A stretch of 47,534 bases of DNA from positions 1 through 47,534 of the forward strand of contig JAZTWE010000006.1 of NCBI GenBank assembly GCA_045635705.1, written 5' to 3'. Shown piece by piece: positions 211-27,445 of this stretch. The stretch comes from Candidatus Enterousia sp. (GTDB lineage Bacteria > Pseudomonadota > Alphaproteobacteria > Rs-D84). The position numbers and the translations under genes were made by a program. A model generated the notes under the pieces. It saw only the letters and a list, made by a program, of their open reading frames with translations, made no database searches and was not told the origin of the DNA. Every line of letters begins with the position of its first letter. Within the stretch, counting starts at the first letter, position 1.

Positions 211-231
211 TTTATTCGTGCAAATTCACGC

Positions 232-369
232 TTGCTAAAAATGGTGCAATGCGTTAGAATACAAGGCGTAGAAAAGAAAAAACAATGCCGAAAAAAATGG
301 GACGATTTTCCGCGGCATAATTTTTTTTGAAAAAATCCCTGAAATCTGCATTTTTTATTCCCCCTTTTT
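232..369 (+). promoter_or_regulatory. Conserved expression cassette, copy 1: sigma70-like promoter plus about 105-nt leader containing an 11-codon uORF
   Basis: TTGCTA (232-237), N17, TAGAAT (255-260). uORF ATG 285 to TAA 320 encodes MPKKMGRFSAA. The leader from about 275 to 369 is almost identical to 14545-14639 and to the reverse complement of 27099-27193. Confidence 0.6.
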
Positions 370-1401
370 ATGCCGAATCTAATCGTCGGGTTGGGTGCAG
401 TTTTTTTGATAATATGCTCAATAACAAGTGTGTCGTATGGTGCAAGCAGGCCATCGTGTGTACATTGTTCTTCGTCTAGCTTGGGGGGCGAGAATAGCTG
501 TCATTCAGCGGGTTGGAATAGTAATGTGGGTGCCTTTTATGGCTATGATGATAGTTGTCATTGTATTGCAAGTCCTAACATTAATTGTGTCATAAGTAAT
601 CACGATACCGTGGTTTATTCAGTAAAGGAATGTTATGAAGATTCTGACTGTGGTACAGGAAAAGCGTGTCTTTCCAATAAGTGTGAATCAAAAACTACTT
701 CTTGTAGCTACAAGGATACAGATTGGACCACCAGTGGCAGTGTACAAACAAAAGTAGCTGGCAGTTATAATTCTTCTTCTGGTAGTTGTGTTTACACTAC
801 TTATGTTCGATGTAGTTCAGCTTATTACAGTTCGGCTGGGATATCAGAAACAAGCAGTTCTTCTTCAACGGTGGCAACACTGACATCTAAGTTAGGTTGC
901 GCAAAGTGTCCTAGTTATTCGAGTTCTGTGGCTGGTTCAGATAGTATCGCAGACTGTTTGTGTAACAGTGGGTATTATATGTCCAGTAATACCTGTCAAC
1001 GTTGTCCTGCGTTTGGTCAAAGTGAGTCGTGCTATGATATTGTTTATCAGGTTTTTAATGACTATTTTGGTTGGAATGATACTGACAGATATGATAATGA
1101 TGGTATTGACACACTAGATGACTATGGTCCAGGTGTTGATGATTTTGAAGATCTTGTTAACGAGATTGGTGTTTTATTCAAAGGCGAAGAAGATTTGTGT
1201 GGGCATCTAGATTGCAGGGAAAACTACACCGGTTACACAATGATTTCGTTGATAGAAGTAATAGATAGTTATTTTGGTGTGGGGACGCAGTATGGCCTCA
1301 GTCCCCAGGGTTCAGCAGCAATATCGAAATGTTTTATTCCTGTTGGTAATTATGTAAACGATATTGGTGCTTTTACAATAACAAGTCCATGTGGTTATTA
1401 A
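370..1401 (+). CDS. Secreted cysteine-rich protein, MP(K/N)xIVGLG family member 1
   Basis: 343-aa ORF. N-terminal signal peptide MPNLIVGLGAVFLIICSITSVSYG is shared with 14640 and 27098(-). Many Cys, including C-A-K-C-P and C-Q-R-C-P modules; a Ser-rich tract; an acidic D/E-rich C-terminal half; ends ...DIGAFTITSPCGY. No SD; C/T-rich region upstream of the ATG. Confidence 0.75.
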   Translation: MPNLIVGLGAVFLIICSITSVSYGASRPSCVHCSSSSLGGENSCHSAGWNSNVGAFYGYDDSCHCIASPNINCVISNHDTVVYSVKECYEDSDCGTGKACLSNKCESKTTSCSYKDTDWTTSGSVQTKVAGSYNSSSGSCVYTTYVRCSSAYYSSAGISETSSSSSTVATLTSKLGCAKCPSYSSSVAGSDSIADCLCNSGYYMSSNTCQRCPAFGQSESCYDIVYQVFNDYFGWNDTDRYDNDGIDTLDDYGPGVDDFEDLVNEIGVLFKGEEDLCGHLDCRENYTGYTMISLIEVIDSYFGVGTQYGLSPQGSAAISKCFIPVGNYVNDIGAFTITSPCGY

Positions 1402-8511: not shown

Positions 8512-10503
8512 ATGGCAAAAAAGTATCTGATTACATCGGCATTACCATATGTAAATTATAATCTGCATATTGGGCATTTGGTTGGTTGTTTGCTGCCCAG
8601 TGATGTTTATGCACGCTTTTGTCGCGCACGTGGTCGCGATGTATTGTATGTCTGTGGTGCTGATGAACACGGTACGGCCAGTGAAATTGGTGCAATGAAA
8701 GAAAATATGCCGGTTGAAGAATATGTTGATAAATATCGCGCAGCGCATATTGACGCGGTGAAAAACTTTAATTTGTCATTTGATGTTTATGGCCGTACGC
8801 ATACGCAAAAGCACAATGATTTGATTCAGTCATTGTTTAAGCGTCTGGACGACCAGGGCATGTTGGTTGAAAAAACATCTGTTCAACCATATTCGATAAA
8901 GGACGAAATGTTCTTGGCTGATCGTTTTGTTATTGGAACCTGTCCGCGTTGTGGTTTTGATGGTGCGTATGGGAACGAGTGTGGTAAATGTGGCGCGACC
9001 CTGGAACCAGAACAGTTGATAAACCCGCACAGTGCGATAACAAAGGATTCACCTGTTGAAATGCGTGAAACAAAACATCTTTATTTCAAGACCAGTGAAA
9101 TGCAGGATAAATTGCGTGCATGGATTGATAGTCGTCGTGGCTGGCCCAAGACCGCATTGGCAATCGCCAACAAGTGGCTGGACGAAGGATTGCGTGACAG
9201 TCCAATTACCCGTGACTTGAAATGGGGAATCCCGGTAAACAAACCAGGGTACGAAAACAAGGTTTTCTATGTTTGGTTTGACGCACCATGGGGCTATGTT
9301 TCAATTTCCCAGGCGGCAAATGACAACTGGGCCGACTGGTGGCATGGTGGTGACGATGTTCATTATACTCAGTTTATGGGCAAGGATAATGTATCGTTTC
9401 ACTCAATCTTTTTCCCTGCCCAGGAATTGGCAATGAATGACAACTGGAAAACAGTTGATACATTAAAGGCATTTAATTTCTTAAACTATAACGGGGCCAA
9501 GATTTCAAAATCAACAGGCAACGGGATATTCTTGAACGATGCGATTGCCGATGCGCCTGCGGATATGTGGCGTTATGCAATTATTGCATCTGCCCCAGAA
9601 ACAGATGATACAGATTTCACAATCGCGCGTTTCGCAGATATTGTAAACAAAGACTTGAACGGAATGCTGGGGAATTTTGTTAGCCGCGTATGTAAACTGA
9701 CCGCAAAAAACTTTGGCGCGAATGTACCAGCGGCAGGCGCGTGGGATTGTGATCTGGAATCAAAAGTCAATGACAAGTTGGCGGAATTGACCGCTGCGCT
9801 GGATGCATGTGAATTCCGTAATGCCATTGCTGCATTGCGTGGTCTGTATGCGATTGGCAATGAATACATGACAATTCATGAACCATGGTCACTGGTTAAA
9901 AATGGTGACATGTCAGCGGCCGGTGCGGTATTGAATCAGTGTTTTCAATTGATTGATTTGTATGCCCGTGTGTCGGCACCGTTTATCCCAACGGCTGCTG
10001 AAAAGATGCAAAATGTATTCGCGCAAACACACGATTTATCATGGCCTGAAAAATATGAACATCGTATAAAGGATGGTGCAGAATTTGTTGTCCCAGAAAA
10101 TCTGTTCAATCGTATTGATGACGAAATGGTTGCGCGTTTGACAGAAAAGTATGCGCCAAAGAAAGTCGATAATACGCCAAAGCCAACAATTGCAAAAATC
10201 GTGTCGGTTCAAAAGCACCCGTCACGCGATGACTTGAATGTGTTATCTGTGGAATATGGTGCGGACAAACCGGTACAGATTGTCTGTGCGGCGCCAAATG
10301 TACGCGCTGGGATGATTGGCGTGTTGGCACCTGTGGGGTGCGCGCTGCCGGGCGCGAAAAAGCCGATTGCCCAACGCACAGTTGCAGGCATTGAATCATA
10401 CGGCATGATGTGCGGCGCATCAGAACTTGGGATTGGTGACGATGATGCAAATATCATTGAACTGTCCAGCGATGCGGTTGTGGGTGCTGTTTTTGTGAAA
10501 TAA
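8512..10503 (+). CDS. metG: Methionyl-tRNA synthetase with C-terminal tRNA-binding (Trbp111/EMAPII-like) domain
   Basis: MAKKYLITSALPYVNYNLHIGHL (HIGH motif), zinc knuckle CPRCG...CGKCG, and KISKS (KMSKS motif). The C-terminal domain reads AKIVSVQKHPSRDDLNVLSV...IESYGMMCGASELGI. AAGGA lies before the ATG at 8512; ORF open from 8464. Confidence 0.95.
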   Translation: MAKKYLITSALPYVNYNLHIGHLVGCLLPSDVYARFCRARGRDVLYVCGADEHGTASEIGAMKENMPVEEYVDKYRAAHIDAVKNFNLSFDVYGRTHTQKHNDLIQSLFKRLDDQGMLVEKTSVQPYSIKDEMFLADRFVIGTCPRCGFDGAYGNECGKCGATLEPEQLINPHSAITKDSPVEMRETKHLYFKTSEMQDKLRAWIDSRRGWPKTALAIANKWLDEGLRDSPITRDLKWGIPVNKPGYENKVFYVWFDAPWGYVSISQAANDNWADWWHGGDDVHYTQFMGKDNVSFHSIFFPAQELAMNDNWKTVDTLKAFNFLNYNGAKISKSTGNGIFLNDAIADAPADMWRYAIIASAPETDDTDFTIARFADIVNKDLNGMLGNFVSRVCKLTAKNFGANVPAAGAWDCDLESKVNDKLAELTAALDACEFRNAIAALRGLYAIGNEYMTIHEPWSLVKNGDMSAAGAVLNQCFQLIDLYARVSAPFIPTAAEKMQNVFAQTHDLSWPEKYEHRIKDGAEFVVPENLFNRIDDEMVARLTEKYAPKKVDNTPKPTIAKIVSVQKHPSRDDLNVLSVEYGADKPVQIVCAAPNVRAGMIGVLAPVGCALPGAKKPIAQRTVAGIESYGMMCGASELGIGDDDANIIELSSDAVVGAVFVK

Positions 10504-12835: not shown

Positions 12836-14479
12836 ATGCAAAACTATGATGTGATTATTATTGGTGGTGGGCATGCAGGGGTCGAAGCGGCGGCTGCATC
12901 TGCCCGTCGTGGTGCAAAAACACTGTTGTTGACCCAGGCAGAATCTGACCTGGGGGCGTTGTCGTGCAACCCCAGTATTGGTGGTCCCGGAAAATCACAG
13001 ATGGTTGCAGAAATGGATAGTTTGGGCGGTGTAATGCCCCGTGCTGCGGATATGTCTGGTATTCATTTTCGTACACTAAACGCATCGCATGGTGCCGCGA
13101 CCCAGGCCTTGCGTGCCCAAATTGACCGCGATTTATATCATAAAGCAATTGTTGATATTTTGGGTCAGTATAAAAATTTGGAAATTAAATACGAACCTGT
13201 ACTGGATTTAGATATTGAATCAAAAACCATAAACAATTTGTATGTTGCAAAATCGATTGTTTTGACCACGGGGACTTTCCTGGGTGGTTTGGTAACCCGC
13301 GGCACAGAAAAGATTTCATCAGGACGCTTGCAAGATGATGGTACATACCAGGCGGCGGATAAAAATATATCTGGGGTATTGGCGCGTGCAGGATTTAACT
13401 TGTTGCGCTTAAAGACAGGAACGCCGGCACGAATAAAAAAATCATCGATTGATTTTTCTGTCTGTGAATTACAGCCCGGTGACACGCCACACGATTGGTT
13501 CAGTGATGGTGATGAAAATAATAATTATGATTCCGTGTGTTATATCACCCACACCACTGAAACCACGCACCAGGTTATTCGTGACAATATAACAAACGCA
13601 CCAATGTACAATGGTGATATTCAAGGTACAGGTCCCCGCTATTGTCCCAGCCTGGAAGACAAGGTTATGCGTTTTCCCGATCACTTGTCGCATCATGTTT
13701 TTTTGGAGCCTGAGGGCTATAACAGCGACCTGATTTACCCTAATGGTATTTCAACCAGTTTTGGTTCTGATGTCCAGGACAAATGGATTCGCACAATCCC
13801 GGGGCTGGAAAATGCCGAAATTGTACGATATGGCTATGCAATTGAATATGATGCCATTGATGCGCGTGCCTTGAACGATAAATTACAAAGCAAAGATTTG
13901 CCACATTTGTTCTTTGCCGGGCAAATCAACGGCACATCTGGCTATGAAGAAGCCGCGGCCCAGGGGCTGGTTGCCGGTGCAAACGCGGTGGCATTTGCGT
14001 GTGGTTTGGAATACTTGGTGCTTGACCGAACCAATGCGATGATTGGTGTTTTGATTGACGATATAACCACACTGGGGGTTGACGAACCGTATCGTATGTT
14101 TACATCACGCGCAGAATATCGTTTGTCGTTGCGCGCCGATAACGCGATTGCACGACTGGGACAAATGGGCGTTGATTTGGGCCTGATAAGCGCGGAAAAA
14201 TATGCTGAAAAATTAAAGCGCAAAGAAAAAATCATTGCTGAAAATGATAAATTCTATGCGGGGTATATCGCGCGCAACGAACGCGAAATTGCCGCCTATC
14301 GCCGTGATGCAAATATGAAGATTCCACATGGGTTTGACTATCGTGGTCTGCCCGGGTTAACGAACGAGTTAATTGAAAAATTAACGGCAACGCGCCCTGA
14401 AAATATCGCTGATTTATCGCGTATCCCTGGTATGACCCCGGCGGGGATTATGGTTGTCTTGCGCAAGATAAAAAGTTAA
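12836..14479 (+). CDS. mnmG: tRNA uridine 5-carboxymethylaminomethyl modification enzyme MnmG (GidA)
   Basis: MQNYDVIIIGGGHAGVEAA (FAD fold), GALSCNPSIGG, LKTGTPARI, GPRYCPSLEDK, FFAGQINGTSGYEEAAAQG. About 547 aa from the ATG at 12836. Confidence 0.93.
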   Translation: MQNYDVIIIGGGHAGVEAAAASARRGAKTLLLTQAESDLGALSCNPSIGGPGKSQMVAEMDSLGGVMPRAADMSGIHFRTLNASHGAATQALRAQIDRDLYHKAIVDILGQYKNLEIKYEPVLDLDIESKTINNLYVAKSIVLTTGTFLGGLVTRGTEKISSGRLQDDGTYQAADKNISGVLARAGFNLLRLKTGTPARIKKSSIDFSVCELQPGDTPHDWFSDGDENNNYDSVCYITHTTETTHQVIRDNITNAPMYNGDIQGTGPRYCPSLEDKVMRFPDHLSHHVFLEPEGYNSDLIYPNGISTSFGSDVQDKWIRTIPGLENAEIVRYGYAIEYDAIDARALNDKLQSKDLPHLFFAGQINGTSGYEEAAAQGLVAGANAVAFACGLEYLVLDRTNAMIGVLIDDITTLGVDEPYRMFTSRAEYRLSLRADNAIARLGQMGVDLGLISAEKYAEKLKRKEKIIAENDKFYAGYIARNEREIAAYRRDANMKIPHGFDYRGLPGLTNELIEKLTATRPENIADLSRIPGMTPAGIMVVLRKIKS

Positions 14480-14501
14480 ACAATATACCGATAAAAACAT
14501 A

Positions 14502-14639
14502 TTGCCTAAAATTGCGCAAGGCGTTATAATCTGTGGTGTAGAAAGTAAAAAACAATGCCGAAAAAAATGGGACGATTTTCTTCGGCATAATTTTTTTTGA
14601 AAAAATCCCTGAAATCTGCATTTTTTATTCCCCCTTTTT
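14502..14639 (+). promoter_or_regulatory. Conserved expression cassette, copy 2: promoter plus leader with uORF/hairpin
   Basis: TTGCCT (14502-14507), N17, TATAAT (14525-14530). uORF 14555-14590 encodes MPKKMGRFSSA. Hairpin arms are ATGCCGAA (14555-14562) and TTCGGCAT (14581-14588), with inner AAAA/TTTT pairs, followed by AA plus T8 (14591-14598). No SD before the ATG at 14640. Confidence 0.65.
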
Positions 14640-15725
14640 ATGCCGAAAATAATCGTCGGTTTGGGTGTGGCTATGCTGGGGACAGTATTGAATATCGGGG
14701 CGGCGCAATCAGGAACTGTATATTCGGGCGTATGCGCAACCAGCAGTCAAAATTCAAACAAAGGGTATTATGTTGTTGATTATTTCTCTGATGCGGCCCC
14801 ATATCAGATTAGCGCAATCCCATCAATATCGACGGTGTATAAAGGTTGTACGGCTGGAACCTATTATAAAATTTTGCCACAAAATTATAACTTTCCGACA
14901 AGTTCTGCTTTTTACGGTACTAGTGGGATAGTCTATTCTTGTTCCAGTTGCGTATCGGGCTATGAATTACAAACTATTTCTGGACCGTTTTTGTATGCGG
15001 ATGTCAGCTCAGGCAGCAATGAAGTTATGTGCACATCTGTTTCTGGTGCGACAATAAAATATTGTGTGCCATCTGGCAGCAGTTCAGGCACCTGTTCATC
15101 TTCGAATTGTGTTTCCGGGAATTGGTATTCGCATAGCACAGGATATGTGTCGCGTGATTATCGATATTGTTCGTCGGGGACATGCGTGACAGAAACACAA
15201 TATGCGTGTGATTATGGTTATTTTGGTAATTCTGGTTCAACATCAGCCAGTGGTTGTACCAAGTGTCCCCCGTTGCGCCTGGCATTTAAAAATCTAGAAA
15301 CAGGCAACGTGGGATATCATGATTACCCAACAACAACCCCGTATGTGGCAATGACATCACTTACAGGATGTTATGTCATTGCCGAACCAAATGTGACAGA
15401 ATTTGTGGATACTGCAGGAACATTTGTGATGGGTGACGGGTATGGCAGCCTAACCAATTCCTGTTATCTTAGTTATGGACAATGTAATAATGTTGTCCCT
15501 GTATGTAATAAGAATACAGCGTCTGGTATTCAGGGGATTCAGACCGCGGCCAGTGGTGGAACCGTGTGCTGGTGTAATATCCCGCAAACAGGAAAAAGCT
15601 TCAAGCATTTTGATTCAGCGGCCTGTTCTTCTGCGTGCACTACGTCGGCCTGTCTTCAAAGGATAATGGGCCATTCGGCTAGTGGCTATGCCCCAACTGT
15701 TTCGCTGACCGATTTAGGGTGCTGA
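14640..15725 (+). CDS. Secreted cysteine-rich protein, MPKIIVGLG family member 2
   Basis: 361 aa. Signal peptide MPKIIVGLGVAMLGTVLNIGAAQS; its first 16 codons are identical at DNA level to 27098(-). Contains a C-T-K-C-P module, DTAGTF motif and a VCWCN...C-x3-C-x3-C C-terminal module. Confidence 0.75.
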   Translation: MPKIIVGLGVAMLGTVLNIGAAQSGTVYSGVCATSSQNSNKGYYVVDYFSDAAPYQISAIPSISTVYKGCTAGTYYKILPQNYNFPTSSAFYGTSGIVYSCSSCVSGYELQTISGPFLYADVSSGSNEVMCTSVSGATIKYCVPSGSSSGTCSSSNCVSGNWYSHSTGYVSRDYRYCSSGTCVTETQYACDYGYFGNSGSTSASGCTKCPPLRLAFKNLETGNVGYHDYPTTTPYVAMTSLTGCYVIAEPNVTEFVDTAGTFVMGDGYGSLTNSCYLSYGQCNNVVPVCNKNTASGIQGIQTAASGGTVCWCNIPQTGKSFKHFDSAACSSACTTSACLQRIMGHSASGYAPTVSLTDLGC

Positions 15726-19792: not shown

Positions 19793-20206
19793 ATGAAATT
19801 TCCATACTTATACTGTGGCAATATCGGGACAAAGTGTCCTGAAAAGTTGCCCGATGGTCGTTGTAAATTAACCGAACGCATCCCAGACGTGGAACGTTGC
19901 CCTGATTCTGTTGTGGTTGAAAACCCGGAAAGCGGATTCTTGATTAAGTACCTGTATAATATTCGCAGTGGCACGCCACGCATTATCACAACAACGACCC
20001 AGCCAATGCAGACATATCCAAACAATCTGTATTGCACACAGATTGACCGGGCCTGTCCACATCAAACGCCGGGTGGTAAATGCAAACTGCATGAAAATAT
20101 CCCATGTGCGGCAGATTGCCCGAATGAAATTTATTTAACCGAAGAAATGGAATTGATAACGCGCCTGTTGCAATTTGTTCATCGTGATAAAGATAAACAG
20201 AAATAA
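19793..20206 (+). CDS. Small Cys-module protein (two tandem copies of the same module)
   Basis: YLYCGNIGTKCPEKLPDGRCKLTERIPDVERCP and NLYCTQIDRACPHQTPGGKCKLHENIPCAADCP are internal repeats. The stop abuts the nth ATG. Confidence 0.55.
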   Translation: MKFPYLYCGNIGTKCPEKLPDGRCKLTERIPDVERCPDSVVVENPESGFLIKYLYNIRSGTPRIITTTTQPMQTYPNNLYCTQIDRACPHQTPGGKCKLHENIPCAADCPNEIYLTEEMELITRLLQFVHRDKDKQK

Positions 20207-20845
20207 ATGAAACTGACACCGCAAAGATATTTTGAATTAGTGCCGCCGACTGTTGATATGACAATTCGGTCGGAACTGTATCACACCAATGAATTTAACT
20301 TTGCGGTGGCGGTTATCTTATCGGCCCAGGCGACGGACAAAAAAGTGAACGAAGTCACACCCGAACTATTTCGCATCGCCCCCACACCACAAAAAATGCT
20401 GGATTTGGGAATTGATGGGCTGCGTGAACATATACGCGTTATTTCATTCTTTAATAACAAGGCGAAAAACATTATTGCATTGGCGGAAAAATTAGTTGCT
20501 GAAAATATGACCGAAACATTTCCCGCCAAATATCATAACCGTGACGCGTTGATGAAATTGCCCGGCATTGGGCAAAAGACTGCAAATGTTGTCTGTAATG
20601 TTTTATGGGGTGCACCAAATATTGGCGTTGATACACATGTTTTTCGCAATGCGCATCGATATGGCTGGGTTGATGATATCGACAATACCCCTGAAAAGGT
20701 CGAAGCAAAATTATTAAAGAAAATTCCAAAAAAATATCATCCGATTGTAAATCATGTAATGGTTTTGCATGGCCGATATGTGTGCACGGCACTGCGCCCA
20801 AAATGCGAAAAGTGTCCTGTAGCAAAATGGTGTCCGGCAAAATAA
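20207..20845 (+). CDS. nth: Endonuclease III (DNA glycosylase/AP lyase)
   Basis: HhH-GPD motif LMKLPGIGQKTANVV, catalytic-region VDTHV, and C-terminal 4Fe-4S ligands C-x6-C-x2-C-x5-C (CTALRPKCEKCPVAKWC). Confidence 0.92.
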   Translation: MKLTPQRYFELVPPTVDMTIRSELYHTNEFNFAVAVILSAQATDKKVNEVTPELFRIAPTPQKMLDLGIDGLREHIRVISFFNNKAKNIIALAEKLVAENMTETFPAKYHNRDALMKLPGIGQKTANVVCNVLWGAPNIGVDTHVFRNAHRYGWVDDIDNTPEKVEAKLLKKIPKKYHPIVNHVMVLHGRYVCTALRPKCEKCPVAKWCPAK

Positions 20846-20868
20846 AAACGCCCAACGGGCGTTTTTTT
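20846..20868. terminator. Bidirectional terminator
   Basis: AAAAACGCCC-AAC-GGGCGTTTTTTT between convergent nth and lpxI. Confidence 0.75.
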
Positions 20869-21700
20869 ATTCGTCCAATGCCATAATAAATATTCCCAAT
20901 TTGTCGGCCTGTTTAATCACAGCGGGTTTATTTACAATAAAGCATGTTTTTGTATTAACGACAATCCCGCGCAGGTTTGCCGCGGCAACCGCGTTCACGG
21001 TATCAACACCAATCGCAGGAATATCAATGCGTAAATCTTGGCCAGGTTTTGTCATTTTCGCGAACACACCGCTTTTGCGTTTGCGCGCACTGCGCATCGC
21101 GACCACGCGTTCCAGCATTTTTGCAGTACCTTCGGCGGCCTCTACGGCGATGACCTGTTTGTCGACAACAACAGATGCCCCGATATCTGCCACGCCGATT
21201 GTGTGTGAAACCTCTATGGCGCGGTCAATATTTTTCTTGTCCGCCGCGGTTGGTTTTGTTTTTGTCTGAATGCCGGCCACCTCGAATGTTAATTCAGGTG
21301 CGATATCCTGGGCGGCGACAATTTCAAATCCGCGTTTTTCCAGTGCCTTGTTTAATGCAACAGCCATTGAATCATACCCCCGTTGATTTTTTAAGATACT
21401 AATTAACACCCCCAGTGACCATAAATCTGGGCGAATATCTGACAGGTTTGGATGCCCCAGTGCGCCGACAAATGTGACCTTGTGTATTCCGCGTTTGCGC
21501 ACCGCGCGCACCGCCGCCCCGGCACCGCCCAGGCGAATTACCATATCGGGGTTCAGGCGCATGTCTACAAAGTTTTTCAACCCCACAACAAACACATCCC
21601 ATCCCGCACGCACCAGCGCATCCCGCGTAAAAAACGGCAGGTCCAACGCCCCAGCCACCAGTGCAATTTTCTTGTCATTATTTTGTTTTTTCATACCCAT
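20867..21700 (-). CDS. lpxI: UDP-2,3-diacylglucosamine pyrophosphatase LpxI (DUF1009)
   Basis: IALVAGALDLPFFTRDALVRAGWDVFVVGL..., DIGASVVVDKQVIAVEAAEGTAKMLERV and KMTKPGQDLRIDIPAIGVDTV match the LpxI family layout. ORF open to 21730. Confidence 0.8.
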   Translation of the reverse strand: MGMKKQNNDKKIALVAGALDLPFFTRDALVRAGWDVFVVGLKNFVDMRLNPDMVIRLGGAGAAVRAVRKRGIHKVTFVGALGHPNLSDIRPDLWSLGVLISILKNQRGYDSMAVALNKALEKRGFEIVAAQDIAPELTFEVAGIQTKTKPTAADKKNIDRAIEVSHTIGVADIGASVVVDKQVIAVEAAEGTAKMLERVVAMRSARKRKSGVFAKMTKPGQDLRIDIPAIGVDTVNAVAAANLRGIVVNTKTCFIVNKPAVIKQADKLGIFIMALDE

Positions 21701-21776
21701 TATGGTACGCGTAAATGTGACTGGAATCAAGTTTCAATTTATGATAAAATTATTACAATAATAATAGGCACACAAA

Positions 21777-22541
21777 ATGAAGAAAATATATAGTTTCGCT
21801 TTTTTTACATCGTTATTACTGACGGCCACGGCCAATGCCGGCTATGACAGTAATCGCTTTCAGTCTGAAATTATGCAGGGTCTGGACCTGATAAGTGCGC
21901 GAACAACAGTTGTTGAAGAGGTTGCACCCGGCGAACTGGGGCGTGAGGTTTATGAAATCGCGACTGCGGTTGATATGCCTGAAATTCAGATGTTTATTCC
22001 GACCACAATGTATGTTCGCATGGGTGGCGGCCTGAATTTGGGCTTTGCCACGACCAAGGCCGCATACAACGGTGCTGAATATGAATCATCAGGCAGTTAT
22101 AGTACCCAAATCGGATTGGGGTGGAATCTGTCATCGTATGTTCGTACAGAAATTGATTTCCAGGCATCGACATTTACATTTTCTGACCTGACTGACATGC
22201 AGGCGACATCTAAAACGATTGGCGGAATGTTGTATTTTGACTTTGCCCGTCGTTATGTCCAGACTGGTGACATTACCCGTCGTCGCACATTTGTTCCATT
22301 TATGGGATTGGGTGCGGGCGTTGGTGTTTATGAATTCGAAGGTGCCGGTGGTGCCGACGGTGCGCTGATTGCGGCCCCACGCGCGACACTTGGGTTTAAT
22401 GTAATGTTTACTGATTTGATTGGCATTGATATTGCCTATCAGTACCAGATGATTATCGGCAATGGTTTTGGTTGGGATACGCGTGCGGGTGGCGTTGACA
22501 ACATCAGTAATCTGATGGCGACATTTCGTGTGAATTTCTGA
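21777..22541 (+). CDS. Outer-membrane beta-barrel protein (Omp25/OmpA-TM-like)
   Basis: Signal peptide MKKIYSFAFFTSLLLTATANA, alternating aromatic/Gly beta-strand pattern, C-terminal ...MATFRVNF (terminal Phe beta-signal). Confidence 0.7.
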   Translation: MKKIYSFAFFTSLLLTATANAGYDSNRFQSEIMQGLDLISARTTVVEEVAPGELGREVYEIATAVDMPEIQMFIPTTMYVRMGGGLNLGFATTKAAYNGAEYESSGSYSTQIGLGWNLSSYVRTEIDFQASTFTFSDLTDMQATSKTIGGMLYFDFARRYVQTGDITRRRTFVPFMGLGAGVGVYEFEGAGGADGALIAAPRATLGFNVMFTDLIGIDIAYQYQMIIGNGFGWDTRAGGVDNISNLMATFRVNF

Positions 22542-22556
22542 TAAAGGGTTAAACAG

Positions 22557-23210
22557 ATGAAGACAAAATTATTCTTATTCGCGTTGTGTTTTTTACCGAT
22601 GGCGGCGAATGCCGCGATACCTTATCGCGTGGAACAGGTTAAAATGCCCGATCCAATAACCCCCACCGGCTATGATGCCGAGGCTTTGGCCCGTCTAAAA
22701 AGATTCTATATCGGGGGCAGTTATAACTTTTCCCTGTGGCAGGACTACACCAATGACAAAGATATGCATGCCAGTGGAAAAAATTCTTCTGGGTTTGATG
22801 TTGTTGCCGGGTTGCGCCTGTATGATATTTTCAGACTAGAAGCGAACTATATCCACACCGATGTAAAATATGATGTCTTTTCTTTGACTGGTGACATGGC
22901 AATGTTAAACGCAATATTTGATGCGCGCATTGATAACCTGTATCGCATATTCCGCAGCCAAATGTTGGTTCCGTATGTCGGACTGGGTGCTGGTTTATCG
23001 TGGAATCGTGCCGCCGATGATGTAAAACTGGATAAAAAGATAACGCCTGTATTGGCGGCGTTGGCGGGGCTGTCGGTTGAATTTAATGATATCTTTGCCC
23101 TGGATTTTGGGTACAAGTATTTTTATATGTTTGACCCCCAGGCTGATGTTATGCCTGATATAAACCCAACCGCGCACCAGTTTCGCGTTGGTGCCCGCCT
23201 GCATTTCTGA
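22557..23210 (+). CDS. Outer-membrane beta-barrel protein
   Basis: Signal peptide MKTKLFLFALCFLPMAANA, beta-strand pattern, C-terminal ...FRVGARLHF. Confidence 0.7.
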   Translation: MKTKLFLFALCFLPMAANAAIPYRVEQVKMPDPITPTGYDAEALARLKRFYIGGSYNFSLWQDYTNDKDMHASGKNSSGFDVVAGLRLYDIFRLEANYIHTDVKYDVFSLTGDMAMLNAIFDARIDNLYRIFRSQMLVPYVGLGAGLSWNRAADDVKLDKKITPVLAALAGLSVEFNDIFALDFGYKYFYMFDPQADVMPDINPTAHQFRVGARLHF

Positions 23211-23221
23211 TAGGGAAAATT

Positions 23222-24145
23222 ATGAAATCTTGTCCGTTTTTTGGAAAATGTGGCGGTTGTAAATTTGATTTTACAGCCGCCAATTATCGTGAACAAAAGG
23301 TCACAGAACTAAACTCTATCCCGCAATTGGGTGCGCCCGTTTGGATTGCGCCGGGGTTGCGTCGTCGTGCTGACTTTTGCTTTGCGGGCAATGATTTTGG
23401 TTTTTTTGAACGTGGGTCCAAGAATATTATACCGGTGCGGGATTGTCCGAATTTATCCGCGGAAATAAACAGTGTGTTGCCACACTTGGCACAACTGCCA
23501 TGGGCGGGCGCGGGCAGTTGCCTGGTCACCCAGTGTGATAATGGCATTGATGTTTATGTCACCAGTTCTGTTCCATATTTTCCGCCTGAATTTCGTGATG
23601 CGGTATTGAAATTACCGGTAATAAGATTTGTGTGGAACGATAAAGTTATTAAACAGTCTGAACAACCGATAATAAGTTTTGGTGATGTGTCCGTGGAATA
23701 CCCCAGTGGCGCATTTTTGCAGCCAACGGTTTCAGGGGCGGATGCGTTGCGTGATATGGTTGTGTCCCGTGCATCTGGCGCGCGCCGTGTTGCAGATTTG
23801 TTTTGTGGACTGGGAAATTTTACCTATGCCTTGTCGGCTGATGGATTTGATATTGTTGGTGCGGGTGTAAAGCGGGATTTGTTCAAAAATCCACTGACTG
23901 TTGGGATGCTGAATACATACGATTGTGTTGTTATGGATCCGCCGCGTGCGGGTGCAATGGCACAGTGCAAAACATTGGTTCACAGTACTGTTCGTCGCAT
24001 TATTTATGTGTCGTGTAATCCGGCGACTTTTGCCCGTGATATGGATATACTGACCCGTGGTGGATATAAATTAACGGAATTGACACCTGTGGATCAATTC
24101 GTGGGCAGTCATCATTGGGAACTATTTTCTGTATTTGATAAATAA
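23222..24145 (+). CDS. SAM-dependent RNA (uracil-5-)-methyltransferase, TrmA/RlmD family
   Basis: N-terminal Cys cluster CPFFGKCGGCKF, SAM motif DLFCGLGNFT, VVMDPPRAG, and catalytic region IIYVSCNPATFARD. Confidence 0.8.
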   Translation: MKSCPFFGKCGGCKFDFTAANYREQKVTELNSIPQLGAPVWIAPGLRRRADFCFAGNDFGFFERGSKNIIPVRDCPNLSAEINSVLPHLAQLPWAGAGSCLVTQCDNGIDVYVTSSVPYFPPEFRDAVLKLPVIRFVWNDKVIKQSEQPIISFGDVSVEYPSGAFLQPTVSGADALRDMVVSRASGARRVADLFCGLGNFTYALSADGFDIVGAGVKRDLFKNPLTVGMLNTYDCVVMDPPRAGAMAQCKTLVHSTVRRIIYVSCNPATFARDMDILTRGGYKLTELTPVDQFVGSHHWELFSVFDK

Positions 24146-24155
24146 GATTGTGTTG

Positions 24156-25115
24156 TTATACAACCTCGGTCACGGCGCGCAGTGCCCCGTCACGGGACAG
24201 TTGCACGACCCGGATTTTCTTTTTCATTTCCGCGATAAGTTCTGTGCGGTTATACGCCGGCTGGGTATGCAGGATTCTATCTGCGAATGCGGCGTATGCA
24301 GCCTCGGCTGATTCTGCGTGAATTGTTGTATAAAAGTGGTCGTGCCCCGTCCCCAGCATTTCCCACAGAACAGATGCGTTGTCTGTTGAAATTTCACCGC
24401 CAATAATAACATCAGGTGTCATTCTGACAACCAAATCCAACAGGCGCGCGTAATTAAAGTCATTGGTCTGTTCGGTGCGCGATAAAACAAAGTGTACACG
24501 ATTTGCCTGGGGAACGCGTATTTCGCGCGCGTCTTCGACCGTGATAACACGGCTGTTTTTATCAATCAGTGTCAACAGGTGATTCAAAAATGTGGTTTTC
24601 CCAGTTGCGGTTGCACCACTAATCAAAATAGGACTGCCGTCATTTATTGCGGTCATCAGTCGGTCGTACGGGTCGTCCGGGCGCACATTTTCGCGTGGCT
24701 TTACCCGCATCAGTGGTCGTCCGCGTGCCAATCCATAGTCTGACAGTTCGATTTCTGCGGCATTTCCGCCACGAATATTCATTGCGACGCCACCCGTCAC
24801 ATCGTGTTCGTCGTATTGAACATTTGGACCTGCGATTGCGGTAAATCTGTGATTGCCCGGCAGGGTCGCATACACAACAGGCATTCCATGAATTGGGTCA
24901 AATGGTCGTTCATAAATATTTGCCACCGTATGAATCAGGTCAACCAGGTATTGTTTTGATAAAACCTCTGACTGATATGAAACCCACGGAACGCGCGCCC
25001 CGTGCAGGCGCATCCACACTTCGCCCGCATGGTTAATTGCGATTTCTTCTACAAACGATGGTTTATAGAATTCTTCCAATGGTCTTAACAAAGATTCCAG
25101 AACAACATTTGACAT
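24156..25115 (-). CDS. VirB11/TrbB-family secretion ATPase, solitary
   Basis: EEIAINHAGEVWM (VirB11 N-domain), Walker A ILISGATATGKTTFLN, VITVEDAREI, DLVVRMTPDVIIGGEI, and His box GHDHFYTTIHAES. ORF open to 25151; AAGGGG precedes the ATG at 25115. Confidence 0.75.
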   Translation of the reverse strand: MSNVVLESLLRPLEEFYKPSFVEEIAINHAGEVWMRLHGARVPWVSYQSEVLSKQYLVDLIHTVANIYERPFDPIHGMPVVYATLPGNHRFTAIAGPNVQYDEHDVTGGVAMNIRGGNAAEIELSDYGLARGRPLMRVKPRENVRPDDPYDRLMTAINDGSPILISGATATGKTTFLNHLLTLIDKNSRVITVEDAREIRVPQANRVHFVLSRTEQTNDFNYARLLDLVVRMTPDVIIGGEISTDNASVLWEMLGTGHDHFYTTIHAESAEAAYAAFADRILHTQPAYNRTELIAEMKKKIRVVQLSRDGALRAVTEVV

Positions 25116-25191
25116 CCCCTTAATTTTACCATAAATCCACCCTTGAATCAAAAAGGTTTATTTGATAAAATCAAAAAAAAGAGAGATTGCT

Positions 25192-25755
25192 ATGAAAAAA
25201 TCTATTTTGTTTTGTCTGTGTGGTGCATTGTTCTTGGCGGGATGTGTATCGTCATCTGATACCCCATACAACACGCGCGATTTTGCCCAGGGTGGTGCCG
25301 ATGCGCCATTGTATAACGAACGCACCAGTGATTTTATGCAGGCTGACAACCAATACGCAAACATCGATTCATACAAGCCGAAAACAGCGGCTGAAATCGA
25401 ACAGAGCAATAATCGCTGGAACACATCGCGTGTTGAAACGCGCTGGCAAGAATACAAGGGAACAATGGTTCGTGTGCAAATCTTGCTGGGCAATACCGAT
25501 ATGCGTGAAATGCGCCTGCGCATGATGCAGAATGCTGATGGTATGGATGTTGATGGTGATGCGCGTACAATTTTGGCCGCGGTTGCAGATTATGAAATGA
25601 AACGTGTATGTGGCCGCAATGCTGACAGTATCGTTATGGTATACGACCAACCTTCGTTTGAGGCTATGCGCCCAACCCCATATTTTGATTATAGAATCGA
25701 AGCCGAGGGCGCAACAATGCGTGAATACGGTTTCCGTTGTGTGTATAACAATTAA
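25192..25755 (+). CDS. Lipoprotein of unknown function
   Basis: MKKSILFCLCGALFLAGC has a lipobox (L-A-G-C). ORF open from 25162. Confidence 0.65.
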   Translation: MKKSILFCLCGALFLAGCVSSSDTPYNTRDFAQGGADAPLYNERTSDFMQADNQYANIDSYKPKTAAEIEQSNNRWNTSRVETRWQEYKGTMVRVQILLGNTDMREMRLRMMQNADGMDVDGDARTILAAVADYEMKRVCGRNADSIVMVYDQPSFEAMRPTPYFDYRIEAEGATMREYGFRCVYNN

Positions 25756-25771
25756 ACAAAAAGGATAAAGG

Positions 25772-26150: not shown

Positions 26151-27098
26151 TCAGTTGCACCCAATCGCATTACGGACAATTTCATTGGATGCAATTAGGG
26201 ATTGGCACATTTTTGTACATAAATTTTGTCGTGGGCAACTCTCAGCAGCCATAACGCTTTTACGCTTACTTGAGATATTACACCAACAGTATGTATCAAG
26301 GGCGCTAGAATTGTTTTTTATGTTACTGTCGACCTGATACAATTCCCCGGCGGTCGTAGAACACACACCTATGACATTACCGCTTTCGTTGTTATAGTCC
26401 ATGCAACTGTCGGAATAATGGCAATCATCGTCATACATGAATGTCCCCGTGCTGTCTGTACGACTGGCGTCCGACTGTACCAGATAGCAATCATATACAG
26501 AATTGCTGCCCTGGTCGATATTTATCACATCGGATGCCAGTTTCCCCGTCGGGCACAATGTGCACCCGGAACATGAAGCCGACATGTCGGTTTCGTTATA
26601 TGTGCATTTGGGGGTTCCGTAATGATTTGCTACGCATTCTGCATCCACCAGTACCTCACAATACGAATCTGATGTTCCTGGTTCACGGCATACCGCCGAT
26701 AGCGTCATATCATACCCAACAGGGTCAAACAAGATGGGAATAATACAATCATCATCATCATTGCATTCAATCGCCCCTATGACGGGGATGTCCCCAATAT
26801 CAGGATCGAGCATCCCACCATTAAGCTGGCATCCCTGGACGGTTGTTGATAAGGCCTTGCCGCTGGAATCTTTACATGGGATTGTTATGTATGTCGTGCC
26901 GAGTGTATATGTTGAACTACAACTTGCGCATCCACGAATTGTATATGAAACGCCTGTGCTTCCTGATGGGCAGCGTTGTGTGCTTTGTGCACCGTATGTT
27001 AGACAATTTACGGGTTCTACATCTGCCGCCATTGCACCTGTTGATAACAGTACTGTCCCCAGCATAGCCACACCCAAACCGACGATTATTTTCGGCAT
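26151..27098 (-). CDS. Secreted cysteine-rich protein, MPKIIVGLG family member 3
   Basis: 315 aa. Signal peptide MPKIIVGLGVAMLGTVLLSTGAMA, C-T-L-C-P-T-G module, DSTGTF motif, and YCWCN...C-x5-C-x3-C C-terminal module. The 5' end plus upstream 138 bp are identical to copy 2. Confidence 0.75.
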   Translation of the reverse strand: MPKIIVGLGVAMLGTVLLSTGAMAADVEPVNCLTYGAQSTQRCPSGSTGVSYTIRGCASCSSTYTLGTTYITIPCKDSSGKALSTTVQGCQLNGGMLDPDIGDIPVIGAIECNDDDDCIIPILFDPVGYDMTLSAVCREPGTSDSYCEVLVDAECVANHYGTPKCTYNETDMSASCSGCTLCPTGKLASDVINIDQGSNSVYDCYLVQSDASRTDSTGTFMYDDDCHYSDSCMDYNNESGNVIGVCSTTAGELYQVDSNIKNNSSALDTYCWCNISSKRKSVMAAESCPRQNLCTKMCQSLIASNEIVRNAIGCN

Positions 27099-27236
27099 AA
27101 AAAGGGGGAATAAAAAATGCAGATTTCAGGGATTTTTTCAAAAAAAATTATGCCGCGGAAAATCGTCCCATTTTTTTCGGCATTGTTTTTTACTTTCTAC
27201 ACCACAGATTATAACGCCTTGCGCAATTTTAGGCAA
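27099..27236 (-). promoter_or_regulatory. Conserved expression cassette, copy 3 (inverted relative to copy 2)
   Basis: The reverse complement carries TTGCCT (27236-27231), N17, TATAAT (27213-27208), and uORF 27183-27148 (MPKKMGRFSAA). It is identical to 14502-14639 except a CG/TT dinucleotide in the 3' hairpin arm. Confidence 0.65.
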
Positions 27237-27274: not shown

Positions 27275-27390
27275 ATATCATCCCGTGGTCATCCGTCTGC
27301 GCTTTGCTGCGTCGAGACAAAAGCCACGGGATGACAGAATTTTTTTGCAAAAATTCTGTTTATAAATACTCAACCAAACTTTTGTTTATA
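27275..27390. repeat. Partial copy of the MITE-like palindromic repeat
   Basis: TCATCCCGTGG...CCACGGGATGACAGAATTTTTTTGCAAAAATTCTGTTTATAAATACTCAACCAAACTTTTGTTTAT matches the right half of 42625-42833 with a few substitutions. Confidence 0.65.
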
Positions 27391-27445
27391 TAAGTAATTA
27401 TTTATTCCACATTCGAACTCTGTACTCTGAAATCTGAAAACTGAT

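What the first reader, a model, noticed from the sequence alone, without database searches (positions are those of the whole stretch)
14502..14687. Triplicated promoter-leader-signal-peptide cassette whose leader holds an 11-codon uORF exactly spanning a terminator-like hairpin
**Repeat structure.**
- 14502-14687 (+) and 27236-27051 (-) are identical apart from one dinucleotide: TT at 14581-14582 versus CG at 27156-27157.
- The leader part recurs at about 275-382 (+).
- Identity begins exactly at the -35 hexamer and stops 16 codons into the CDS. After that the three proteins diverge completely.

**Leader features (copy 2).**
- The uORF ATG CCG AAA AAA ATG GGA CGA TTT TCT TCG GCA TAA lies at 14555-14590.
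- Its start codon opens the 5' arm ATGCCGAA. Its stop overlaps the end of the 3' arm TTCGGCAT.
- The stem extends by AAAA/TTTT around an 8-nt loop and is followed by AA plus T8. That is the architecture of an intrinsic terminator.
- The main ORF starts with the same octamer ATGCCGAA (14640-14647). The 3' arm could therefore pair either with the uORF start or with the main start codon.
- The main start has no Shine-Dalgarno sequence (ATTCCCCCTTTTT-ATG), although most other genes here do.

**Interpretation (inference).** This looks like a translation-coupled attenuator or start-codon sequestration switch that coordinates all family members. I do not know a described equivalent.
Basis: partly seen in the sequence, partly recalled or inferred. 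Interest (0 to 1): 0.8.

Follow-up and report, generated by a model that had tools for sequence, protein, structure and literature searches.

The report
Flippable ribosome-site switch before surface genes
The repeated "leader" in front of three secreted-protein genes is most likely a tiny invertible DNA switch (about 87 bp) carrying the ribosome-binding site and start codon, so each gene can be turned on or off by flipping; it is not an RNA attenuator with a leader peptide.

Summary
**Observation:** confirmed. Three promoter–leader–signal-peptide cassettes exist: 232-397 (+), 14502-14690 (+) and 27236-27048 (-). Each has the hairpin, the 11-codon uORF, a T8 run and a main start without a Shine-Dalgarno (SD) sequence.

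**Comparison with relatives** (Ca. Enterousia and related gut Alphaproteobacteria; 9 further distinct leaders in the window's orientation and one in the opposite orientation) changes the reading:
- The uORF start is ATG, CTG or ACG.
- The uORF is 9 to 41 codons long.
- The T-run occurs only in this genome.
- RNA hairpin stability is often no better than that of shuffled sequence.

**What is conserved:**
- The hairpin's 3' arm and the gene start form inverted repeats around a 50-51-bp segment.
- The minus strand of that segment carries a strong SD, an ATG and 10 codons.
- Flipped, this is in frame with the gene in all 12 such leaders, and it is in frame as found in the flipped one.

**Both orientations exist at one orthologous locus** (L036 versus L037/L034). 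The inner parts of the repeats are swapped exactly as an inversion predicts. The flipped form yields the called protein MQKSGVFNCNF-MPKINVGL….

**Best explanation (confidence about 0.7):** each gene has its own phase-variable inverton carrying the ribosome-binding site and start codon. In this genome the OFF orientation also places a cwpV-like terminator at the junction.

**Not shown:** the recombinase, and mixed orientations within a single sample.

**Novelty:** new variant of a known kind.

The parts
14502..14530 (+). Fixed sigma-70-type promoter of cassette 2, outside the invertible unit: -35 TTGCCT at 14502-14507 and -10 TATAAT at 14525-14530
   Evidence: scores it 10/12 with a 17-nt spacer. 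Both hexamers are conserved in all aligned leaders.
14555..14588 (+). Left site, a 34-bp imperfect palindrome: ATGCCGAAAAAAA-TGGGACGA-TTTTCTTCGGCAT. The 5' arm is read as an outer half-site. The 3' arm (14571-14588) is the left inverted repeat (IRL).
   Evidence: The element is exactly 34 nt in all 14 leaders. RNA stability varies from -4.5 to -14.4 kcal/mol. The block AATGGGACGATTTTC is invariant in 7 leaders.
14555..14590 (+). Read here as a by-product of the 5' arm being a copy of the gene-start half-site, not as a conserved leader peptide.
   Evidence: Start codon ATG/CTG/ACG and length 9-41 codons across leaders.
14591..14598 (+). T8 run, 2 nt after the hairpin. With the hairpin it forms a terminator-like junction only in the present (OFF) orientation. 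On the minus strand it encodes part of S-K-K-I of the N-terminal extension.
   Evidence: It is absent after the hairpin in all 9 other OFF-type leaders. In a modelled ON orientation the hairpin is followed by AAAAAGGGGG.
14589..14639 (-). 51-bp invertible core. On the minus strand it carries SD GGGGGA (complement of 14629-14634), ATG (complement of 14619-14621) and 10 further codons (MQISGIFSKKI).
   Evidence: segment length 50-51 nt; the SD..ATG is in frame (33 nt) with the main ORF after inversion in all 12 OFF-type leaders, and in frame as found in the two ON-type loci. The real flipped state is seen in L034/L037.
14571..14657 (.). Whole predicted invertible unit of cassette 2 (87 bp), bounded by the perfect inverted cores GACGATT (14571-14577) and AATCGTC (14651-14657).
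   Evidence: One search gives the coordinates. The crossover is placed at the core because the inner repeat parts are swapped between L036 and L037.
14640..14657 (+). Right inverted repeat (IRR), ATGCCGAAAATAATCGTC. It equals the first 6 codons of the main ORF as annotated.
   Evidence: The NTG codon is ATG, GTG or TTG across leaders.
14640..15725 (+). Family gene 2: a 361-aa Cys-rich secreted protein. It has no SD in the present orientation. The predicted ON form begins MQISGIFSKKIMPKKIVGLG…
14448..14621 (-). 57-aa antisense ORF created by the backward-facing SD and ATG reading through IRL and the promoter. Read as a decoy or annotation artefact that marks the OFF orientation.
   Evidence: 14 clusters of such peptides exist in public data.
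232..260 (+). Promoter of cassette 1: -35 TTGCTA at 232-237 and -10 TAGAAT at 255-260.
285..318 (+). Left site (hairpin) of cassette 1.
301..387 (.). Predicted invertible unit of cassette 1. The core segment 319-369 is identical to that of cassette 2.
370..1401 (+). Family gene 1 (343 aa), directly downstream of an ompA-like gene and its terminator. L034 and L037 sit at the same kind of position.
27208..27236 (-). Promoter of cassette 3.
27150..27183 (-). Left site (hairpin) of cassette 3.
27081..27167 (.). Predicted invertible unit of cassette 3.
26151..27098 (-). Family gene 3 (315 aa).

Best explanation
**What it is.** Each of the three cassettes is a small DNA-inversion switch (an inverton) lying between a fixed promoter and a gene for a Cys-rich secreted protein.

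**Anatomy.**
- They flank a 51-bp segment.
- That segment carries a strong Shine-Dalgarno sequence, an ATG and 10 codons, which at present point backwards.

**OFF, the state assembled at all three window loci.**
- The mRNA has no SD in front of a weak NTG start.
- In this genome only, the left-site hairpin is followed by U8 contributed by the segment. This would act as a terminator at the junction.

**ON, after inversion between the cores GACGATT and AATCGTC (an 87-bp unit).**
- The SD and ATG face the gene, in frame.
- The protein would begin MQISGIFSKKI-MPKKIVGLG….
- The U-run is replaced by A5G5.

**The upstream ATGCCGAA 5' arm.** It is read as the outer half-site of a palindromic recombinase-binding site. 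The uORF is an incidental consequence of that.

**Shown.**
- The repeat anatomy.
- Conservation of the backward SD-ATG-10-codon unit, in frame.
- Both orientations at one orthologous locus in different samples.

**Inferred.**
- That switching is enzymatic, reversible and frequent.
- That it controls translation.
- The terminator role.
- The half-site role of the 5' arm.
For: 1. **Opposite orientation exists elsewhere.** L034 carries the same promoter, 5' arm and gene start. Its inter-repeat segment is the reverse complement of the one in the window. There it supplies SD GGGGGA-7 nt-ATG in frame, which gives the called protein P0004, MQKSGVFNCNFMPKINVGL….

2. **Both states occur at one orthologous locus.**
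   - L036 (OFF, P0010) and L037 (ON, P0009) share 149/150 upstream nt, the same 5' arm and the same downstream sequence. Their genes are 95% identical.
   - The 81-bp middle is 56% identical when aligned directly, against about 84% over the 73 nt that overlap when one is reverse-complemented.
   - The inner repeat parts are exactly swapped. OFF-left ATTTTCGGCAT is the reverse complement of ON-right ATGCCGAAAAT. OFF-right GTGCCGAATCT is the reverse complement of ON-left AGATTCGGCAC.
   - The ON form was recovered on four contigs from two loci. Four assembly records are known and a fifth is unlisted.

3. **The architecture is invariant.** In all 14 leaders examined (12 distinct OFF-type, 2 ON) the left element is 34 nt, the segment is 50-51 nt, and an SD (GGGGGA, GGGAGG or GGGT) precedes an ATG plus 10 codons. 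There are no stop codons. In the 12 OFF-type leaders the unit is exactly 33 nt from, and in frame with, the gene's NTG once inverted; in the two ON loci it is so as found. The proteins themselves are at most about 40% identical.

4. **OFF-type leaders are common.** 14 clusters of OFF-type antisense peptides on about 30 contigs show the same layout.

5. **Hints of coding constraint on the repeats.**
   - The gene's first codon and its IRL counterpart vary only among ATG, GTG and TTG (M/V/L).
   - The one difference between copies 2 and 3 (TT versus CG) changes Lys AAG to Arg CGG in the antisense, ON-state frame.

6. **A degenerate fourth half-site.** The sequence just downstream of the right core matches the reverse complement of the 5' arm at 6-10 of 16 positions. 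Controls give 4.0 ± 1.8.

7. **Orientation-dependent terminator.** In the window the hairpin (-13/-14 kcal/mol in copy 2) is followed by U8 only in the OFF orientation. In a modelled ON orientation it is followed by AAAAAGGGGG. This parallels the published cwpV OFF-state junction terminator (PMC2784873).

8. **Biological context fits phase variation.** The family is multi-copy and divergent, and encodes secreted Cys-rich proteins. The lineage is gut-associated with reduced genomes of under 1 Mb.
Against: - No recombinase gene was found. There was no Phage_integrase, Resolvase or IS110-type Pfam hit among about 44 window ORFs. None appeared among the called genes of loci L001-L004 and L034-L043.
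- The two orientations were seen only between samples or strains, never as a mixture within one sample. Reads could not be examined.
- Only one locus lineage (downstream of ompA) was seen ON.
- L036 and L037 differ at about 12 of 73 positions in the segment beyond the inversion itself. They are therefore not simple isomers.
- 87 bp between the crossover points is very short for a recombinase synapse.
- The inverted repeats are imperfect: 7-8-bp perfect cores plus mismatched inner parts.
- The ON loci have two substitutions in the left core (GAGATG versus GGGACG). The ON state could be fixed there.
Confidence: 0.7

Rival explanations
1. An RNA-level switch in which translation of an 11-codon uORF spanning a terminator hairpin, or alternative pairing of the 3' arm with the uORF start or the main start, sets termination and start-codon access.
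For: - In this genome the hairpin plus U8 meets terminator criteria in copy 2.
- The minimum-free-energy fold of the full leader pairs the 3' arm with the main start.
- The leader is conserved far beyond recent paralogy.
Against: - The uORF AUG is absent in 3 of 12 distinct OFF-type leaders, the uORF has no SD, and its length varies from 9 to 41 codons.
- The U-run is absent in 9 of 9 OFF-type leaders outside the window.
- The hairpin is no more stable than shuffled sequence in 5 of 11 leaders, and no compensatory pairs are seen.
- The whole-leader z-score is -1.25.
- The model does not explain the conserved backward SD-ATG-10 codons in frame, or the inverted orientation in L034 and L037.
Confidence: 0.1
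2. There is no switching. The inversion in the L034/L037 lineage was a single evolutionary event mediated by the short inverted repeats, for example by replication template switching. Elsewhere the backward SD-ATG unit is conserved because the antisense small ORF (36-78 aa) is a real gene, or because the sequence has another function at the DNA level.
For: - Only one locus lineage is seen flipped, and its left core carries two substitutions.
- The antisense ORF has a strong SD and is found in 14 clusters.
- No recombinase was found.
Against: - The antisense ORF is conserved only over its first ~38 residues, the stretch fixed by the leader and promoter DNA. Beyond that the tail is unrelated and total length varies from 36 to 78 aa. 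It also runs antisense across the promoter.
- No conserved antisense promoter exists. The only minus-strand candidate lies in unique coding sequence of copy 2.
- The exact 33-nt in-frame relation to the gene in all 12 OFF-type leaders is unexplained unless the ON state is used.
- OFF (L036) and ON (L037) occur with 149/150 identical upstream flanks.
Confidence: 0.12
3. The repeated NTGCCGAA…AATCGTC motifs (two direct copies and one inverted) are operator sites for a transcription factor that co-regulates the family. The RNA and inversion features are incidental.
For: - Three copies of a 14-18-nt motif occur at fixed spacing downstream of the promoter.
- Spacing is conserved without gaps.
Against: - This does not explain the orientation polymorphism with swapped inner repeats.
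- It does not explain the conserved backward ribosome-binding site and start codon in frame.
- No regulator gene is linked to the cassettes.
Confidence: 0.05

Closest known systems
cwpV switch of Clostridioides difficile (Emerson et al. 2009, PMC2784873)
   Same: - The promoter is fixed upstream of the invertible region.
- In the OFF orientation a stem-loop forms at the junction of the left inverted repeat and the inverted segment, followed by poly-U. It lies about 60 nt into the transcript.
- The gene encodes a surface or secreted protein.
   Different: - cwpV inverts 195 bp flanked by 21-bp repeats. The segment contains neither promoter nor ORF, and its RBS and ATG lie outside it.
- Here the unit is about 87 bp and carries the SD, the start codon and the first codons.
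- The right repeat lies inside the coding sequence.
- The terminator feature is present only in this genome, not in relatives.
- RecV is known for cwpV. No recombinase is identified here.
Mycoplasma penetrans mpl (P35 family) promoter inversions. From my own knowledge (Horino et al. 2003); the original paper was not retrieved or read here (it surfaced only as term matches in other papers).
   Same: - A multigene family of variable surface proteins in a reduced-genome, host-associated bacterium.
- Each gene has its own small invertible element, so members switch independently.
   Different: - In mpl the invertible element carries the promoter.
- Here the promoter is outside the unit and invariant. 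What flips is the translation-initiation region.
Ureaplasma MBA/UU376 and UU172 elements, and the Mycoplasma vsa/vsp/vpma systems (PMC3047005, PMC2268961)
   Same: - Site-specific inversions occur at short inverted repeats in or near the 5' end of surface-protein genes.
- The repeats lie within the N-terminal coding region.
- The organisms have reduced genomes.
   Different: - Those systems move one expression site or 5' end between alternative genes by inverting kilobase-sized segments.
- Here each gene keeps its own promoter and body, and only about 87 bp flips.
'Partial intergenic' invertons and gene-altering programmed inversions from surveys (PMC10028968, PMC9881135)
   Same: One inverted repeat lies in the intergenic leader and the other inside the CDS.
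   Different: - The surveys describe these mainly as long, shufflon-like swaps of coding modules.
- Milman et al. required repeats of at least 22 bp linked to CDS pairs on opposing strands.
- I found no described case in which an element under 100 bp flips only the SD and start codon.
Leader-peptide attenuation (ermC or cat type) and intrinsic-terminator attenuators
   Same: A three-segment topology: a mimic, an anti-start segment and the start. In this genome there is also a hairpin followed by a U-run.
   Different: A conserved translatable leader ORF and a conserved terminator are both lacking in relatives.

Membership tests
Site-specific DNA-inversion phase-variation switch (inverton) | Inverted repeats flank the invertible segment | tested here: met
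   IRL GACGATTTTCTTCGGCAT and IRR ATGCCGAAAATAATCGTC have perfect 7-bp cores (14571-14577 and 14651-14657). The same arrangement is present in all 14 leaders.
Site-specific DNA-inversion phase-variation switch (inverton) | Both orientations are found at the same locus | tested here: met
   L036 (OFF) versus L037 and L034 (ON): identical flanks (149/150), inverted middle and swapped inner repeats. This holds between samples only, not within one sample.
Site-specific DNA-inversion phase-variation switch (inverton) | Reversible switching within a clonal population | not testable with these tools
   Needs read-level data or cultures.
Site-specific DNA-inversion phase-variation switch (inverton) | A dedicated tyrosine or serine recombinase (or Piv-type invertase) | tested here: inconclusive
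   No such Pfam domain was found in about 44 window ORFs or in the called genes of the fetched loci with gene calls (L001-L004, L034-L043). The window is only 47.5 kb of a genome likely under 1 Mb, so the enzyme may be encoded elsewhere.
Site-specific DNA-inversion phase-variation switch (inverton) | The segment carries an orientation-dependent expression signal | tested here: met
   SD, ATG and 10 codons, in frame with the gene in all 12 OFF-type leaders once inverted and in both ON loci as found. This rests on sequence only; expression was not measured.
Invertible-promoter switches (fimS, Bacteroides PS loci, M. penetrans mpl) | The promoter lies inside the invertible segment | tested here: not met
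   The only promoter-like site (10/12) lies upstream of the left repeat. By inspection, no promoter-like hexamers occur in the 51-bp segment in either orientation.
cwpV-type switch (inversion between promoter and ORF creating an OFF-state terminator) | Stem-loop plus poly-U at the junction of the left repeat and the segment, in one orientation only | tested here: met
   Window copies: hairpin of -9.8 to -13.1 kcal/mol followed by AA and U8 when OFF, and by A5G5 in the modelled ON state. This is not conserved in relatives (0 of 9).
cwpV-type switch (inversion between promoter and ORF creating an OFF-state terminator) | The inverted region contains none of the ORF or its RBS | tested here: not met
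   The unit contains the SD, the start codon and the first codons.
Leader-peptide (uORF) translational or transcriptional attenuator | A conserved, translatable leader ORF | tested here: not met
   Start codon ATG/CTG/ACG, no SD, 9-41 codons, peptide not conserved.
Intrinsic-terminator attenuator or riboswitch-like leader | A conserved hairpin followed by a U-run, and covariation supporting the RNA structure | tested here: not met
   The U-run is specific to the window. The hairpin z-score is about 0 in 5 of 11 leaders. There is no Rfam hit.

The most novel reading that the evidence does not exclude
A previously undescribed class of "translational micro-inverton". It is a self-contained unit of about 87 bp, among the smallest programmed inversions. 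It flips only the Shine-Dalgarno sequence, the start codon and an 11-codon N-terminal extension. The right recombination site lies in the first codons of the gene. One copy sits in front of every member of a variable Cys-rich secreted-protein family in reduced-genome gut Alphaproteobacteria (Rs-D84 / Ca. Enterousia). In some lineages the OFF state is reinforced by a junction terminator.
Probability: 0.6. Interest if true: 0.8.

Novelty: new variant of a known kind. Interest (0 to 1): 0.68.

Why it matters
**If confirmed, three things follow.**
- Phase variation by DNA inversion would extend from promoters, terminators and coding modules to the translation-initiation region itself.
- The element is far below the size that inverton finders and recombinase-synapse models usually consider.
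- An uncultured, genome-reduced gut lineage would be shown to have a mycoplasma-like repertoire of individually switchable surface proteins. This bears on how it interacts with hosts or partner cells.

**There is also a practical annotation lesson.**
- In the OFF state, gene callers truncate family genes. P0002 starts at an internal ATG.
- They miss some genes entirely, as in L041.
- They call spurious 36-78-aa antisense "proteins"; 14 such clusters are in public databases.

Tried and rejected
**Searches that gave nothing useful**
- Rfam, gathering thresholds, whole window: only two tRNAs.
- Exact-protein look-ups of window proteins: not on record.
- The metagenome-contig scan with TGGGACGATTTTCNNNGGCAT returned 25 loci, all chance hits inside unrelated coding sequence. 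L008 from the genome scan was also a chance hit.
- A profile search with the family alignment found only 5 clusters.
- A PDB profile search of the family found nothing. Pfam gave only sub-threshold hits.
- The recombinase search of window ORFs was negative.
- My pattern search for extra IRL-like sites in the window used a spacer one base too long and is uninformative. One search already shows only three cassettes.

**Ideas considered and dropped**
- CsrA-type GGA-loop binding: recalled only. I recall that CsrA is generally lacking in Alphaproteobacteria, and the loop is not conserved in L034.
- An internal promoter between the T8 run and the ATG: no acceptable -10 hexamer.
- A conserved mini-ORF MGRFS: its ATG is lost in L034, L036 and L038.
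- An RNA thermometer or a pseudoknot between GGGA and UCCC: too few sequences, and the UCCC/CCCCC blocks are explained as the complements of the GGG Gly codon and the SD.
Full report
**1.

The window is one complete NCBI contig. It carries three copies of a cassette made of a promoter, a leader and a signal peptide.
- Copies 14502-14690 (+) and 27236-27048 (-) are 98% identical over 189 nt.
- Copy 225/232-397 (+) is 89-90% identical.
- Copies 2 and 3 differ only by TT versus CG at 14581-14582.

Copy 2 has these features:
- -35 TTGCCT at 14502-07 and -10 TATAAT at 14525-30
- hairpin at 14555-14588
- uORF at 14555-14590
- T8 at 14591-14598
- main ATG at 14640, with no SD

The three genes are 370-1401, 14640-15725 and 27098-26151. 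They encode Cys-rich secreted proteins that are distant paralogues, not unrelated sequences. They have no significant Pfam hit and no PDB relatives. Rfam has nothing for the leader.

**2. Relatives**

The family is rare in public data.
- A protein search found P0002-P0005.
- A DNA pattern from the most conserved leader block found three loci in GTDB genomes. L005 is from Candidatus Enterousia sp. L006 and L007 are from an Alphaproteobacteria MAG from roe-deer rectum.
- Ca. Enterousia (order Rs-D84) comprises uncultured gut bacteria with genomes under 1 Mb (PMC12306168).
- The JGI metagenome scan gave only chance hits.
- Further leaders came from contigs encoding family proteins or the small antisense ORF: L001-L004 and L034-L043.

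The leaders align essentially without gaps, and the seven-leader alignment has 83% mean column identity. The proteins are only about 21-43% identical. The leader is therefore under selection well beyond recent paralogy.

**3. The RNA-attenuator features are not what is conserved**

There are 12 distinct leaders in the window's orientation.
- The uORF start is ATG in nine, CTG in one and ACG in two.
- There is never an SD in front of the uORF.
- The uORF is 9, 11, 22 or 41 codons long, and 24 codons in the flipped loci.
- A T-run after the hairpin occurs only in the three window copies, and in 0 of the 9 other leaders in that orientation.
- The 34-nt hairpin ranges from -4.5 to -14.4 kcal/mol.
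- It is indistinguishable from shuffled sequence in 5 of 11 leaders. Mismatches are not compensated.
- The whole-leader fold has z = -1.25.

**4. What is conserved**

- The left element is always 34 nt.
- The distance from its end (…GGCAT) to the gene's NTGCC is always 50-51 nt.
- The minus strand of that segment always reads SD (GGGGGA, GGGAGG or GGGT), a 6-8-nt spacer, ATG and 10 sense codons.
- In the 12 leaders in the window's orientation, this unit is exactly 33 nt from, and in frame with, the gene's first codon once the segment is inverted. In the two flipped loci it is so as found.
- The blocks I first took for RNA motifs (CCCTGNTTTCTGCAT and CCCCC) are the complements of codons 1-5 (MQKSG) and of the SD.
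- The 3' arm and the gene start are inverted repeats. Their perfect cores are GACGATT and AATCGTC in the window, and GACGTTTA and TAAACGTC in L036.

**5. Both orientations exist**

- In L034/L035 and in L037 the segment is the reverse complement of the usual one. The SD and ATG face the gene, and gene callers produce MQKSGVFNCNF-MPKINVGL… (P0004, P0009).
- P0010 belongs to the same 90% cluster but starts at MPNLNVGL. Its locus, L036, has the usual orientation.

L036 and L037 compare as follows:
- 149/150 identical upstream nucleotides
- the same 5' arm and the same downstream sequence
- genes 95% identical
- the 81-bp middle aligns at 56% directly, against about 84% over the 73 nt that overlap as a reverse complement

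The inner repeat parts are swapped exactly. ATTTTCGGCAT on the left of L036 is the reverse complement of ATGCCGAAAAT on the right of L037. GTGCCGAATCT on the right of L036 is the reverse complement of AGATTCGGCAC on the left of L037. This is what an inversion with crossover in the outer cores predicts.

An assembly artefact is unlikely.
- Several contigs were built with k = 141, which spans the whole unit.
- The ON form appears on four contigs from two loci. Four assembly records are known and a fifth is unlisted.

The locus lies downstream of an ompA-like gene and its terminator, as does window copy 1.

**6. Model**

- The promoter is fixed and lies outside the unit.
- In the assembled state, all three window cassettes have the SD and ATG facing backwards. 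I read this as OFF.
- That arrangement creates a 38-57-aa antisense ORF. Such ORFs form 14 clusters on about 30 contigs in public databases. They are useful markers of OFF loci.
- Inverting 14571-14657 would give …GGGGGAATAAAAAATG CAG… in frame. The protein would begin MQISGIFSKKIMPKKIVGLGVAML.

In this genome alone, the segment contributes U8 two nucleotides after the left-site hairpin when OFF, and A5G5 when ON.
- This reproduces the published logic of the C. difficile cwpV switch. There the OFF-state stem-loop plus poly-U forms at the junction of the left repeat and the inversion region (PMC2784873).

The 5' arm is best read as the outer half of a palindromic recombination site, 13-8-13 in the window. 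A degenerate fourth half-site lies just downstream of the right core, matching at 6-10 of 16 positions. Controls give 4.0 ± 1.8. This point is suggestive only.

Two observations fit coding constraint on the repeats in the ON frame:
- The dinucleotide difference between copies 2 and 3 is Lys AAG to Arg CGG in that frame.
- The NTG codons of both repeats vary only among M, V and L.

**7. Weak points**

- No recombinase was found in the window or near the other loci.
- Mixed orientations within a single sample could not be tested.
- Only one locus lineage is seen ON. Its left core has two substitutions, so it may be locked.
- The L036 segment differs from the reverse-complemented L037 segment at about 12 positions. 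It is identical to the L006 segment. This implies exchange of segments between loci, by gene conversion or inter-cassette recombination, in addition to inversion.
- 87 bp is very short for synapsis. The segment is rich in A/T tracts, which might help bending. That is my inference and was not tested.

**8. Comparison with known systems, and novelty**

- The kind, DNA-inversion phase variation of surface proteins, is well known.
- The closest systems are cwpV (fixed promoter, OFF-state junction terminator), M. penetrans mpl (one small switch per family member, but carrying the promoter; from my own knowledge) and the Ureaplasma and Mycoplasma systems with repeats in 5' coding regions (PMC3047005, PMC2268961).
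- Surveys list "partial intergenic" invertons, mainly as long, shufflon-like elements (PMC10028968; PMC9881135).
- In seven literature searches and five papers read, I found no described element that flips only the SD, start codon and first codons. Such a search cannot prove absence.

**Verdict.** New variant of a known kind, interest about 0.68, confidence in the inverton reading about 0.7.

Noticed in passing
window 42625-42833; partial copy at 27321-27394; also L001 ~185-290, L006 ~2230-2250, L007 ~2200-2220, L040 ~10135-10160: A ~210-bp element bounded by 31-bp inverted repeats that are 97% complementary (GATAAATAAAAGTTTAGATAAGTATTTATAA / its complement), 147 bp apart, with internal GC hairpins. 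One-armed copies or the motif TAAACTTTTATTTATC recur just upstream of family-gene promoters in several genomes. It could be a MITE-like repeat or a second, conventional-sized inverton. A good promoter (TTGAAC-17-TATAAT) lies just after it at about 42843-42871.
   Followed up: partly
window 14502-14690 versus 27048-27236: Cassettes 2 and 3 are inverted 189-bp near-identical repeats 12.4 kb apart. All three cassettes share an identical hairpin, T8 run and 51-bp segment, although the promoter of copy 1 has diverged. This points to concerted evolution or exchange between cassettes, and to possible large chromosomal inversions.
   Followed up: partly
L034 733-830, L037 1675-1772 versus L036 150-247: The two ON-orientation loci carry two substitutions in the left core (CAAAGAGATGTTTA versus CAAAGGGACGTTTA in the OFF locus). 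The ON state might be locked in that strain.
   Followed up: no
window 370-1401, 14640-15725, 26151-27098 and homologues P0002-P0019: The family proteins are rich in CxxC…GY(E/Y/T) and C..GYY motifs, with conserved CTKCP and CWCN motifs and many ending in LGC. By eye and from memory this resembles furin-like or Giardia-VSP-type cysteine repeats. No significant Pfam or PDB sequence hit was found.
   Followed up: partly
L001 470, L041 ~9980, L038 ~9972; proteins P0002, P0003, P0011-P0014: Public gene calls for this family are systematically wrong in the OFF state. Starts are placed at internal ATGs. The L041 gene (TTG start) is not called at all. 36-78-aa antisense ORFs across the leader and promoter are called as proteins.
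   Followed up: yes
window 181-212, 1398-1429, 27444-27475, 33028-33059, 42591-42622, 43859-43890 and others: A very uniform family of bidirectional terminators (AAAAAATCCCCC-N4-GGGGGATTTTT), at -16 to -19 kcal/mol. They are tighter and more GC-rich than the leader hairpin.
   Followed up: partly
window 25738-25782, 43085-43129, 45245-45289; 45617-45706 / 46501-46590: Three ORFs share a similar RBS-plus-MKK(I/L) start region. ORFs 45213-46172 and 46190-47050 are tandem paralogues with no Pfam hit. They may be another small secreted-protein family.
   Followed up: no
window ~20000-26000 and ~39000: The GC-skew sign and the dominant gene strand flip together: plus-strand genes up to about 24 kb, minus-strand genes from 24-39 kb, then plus-strand again. 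This may reflect a past rearrangement or a terminus-like region. Cassette 3 sits at the first boundary.
   Followed up: no
window 35018-42593: Four large adjacent ORFs (450, 403, 488 and 1052 aa) have no Pfam hit at all.
   Followed up: no
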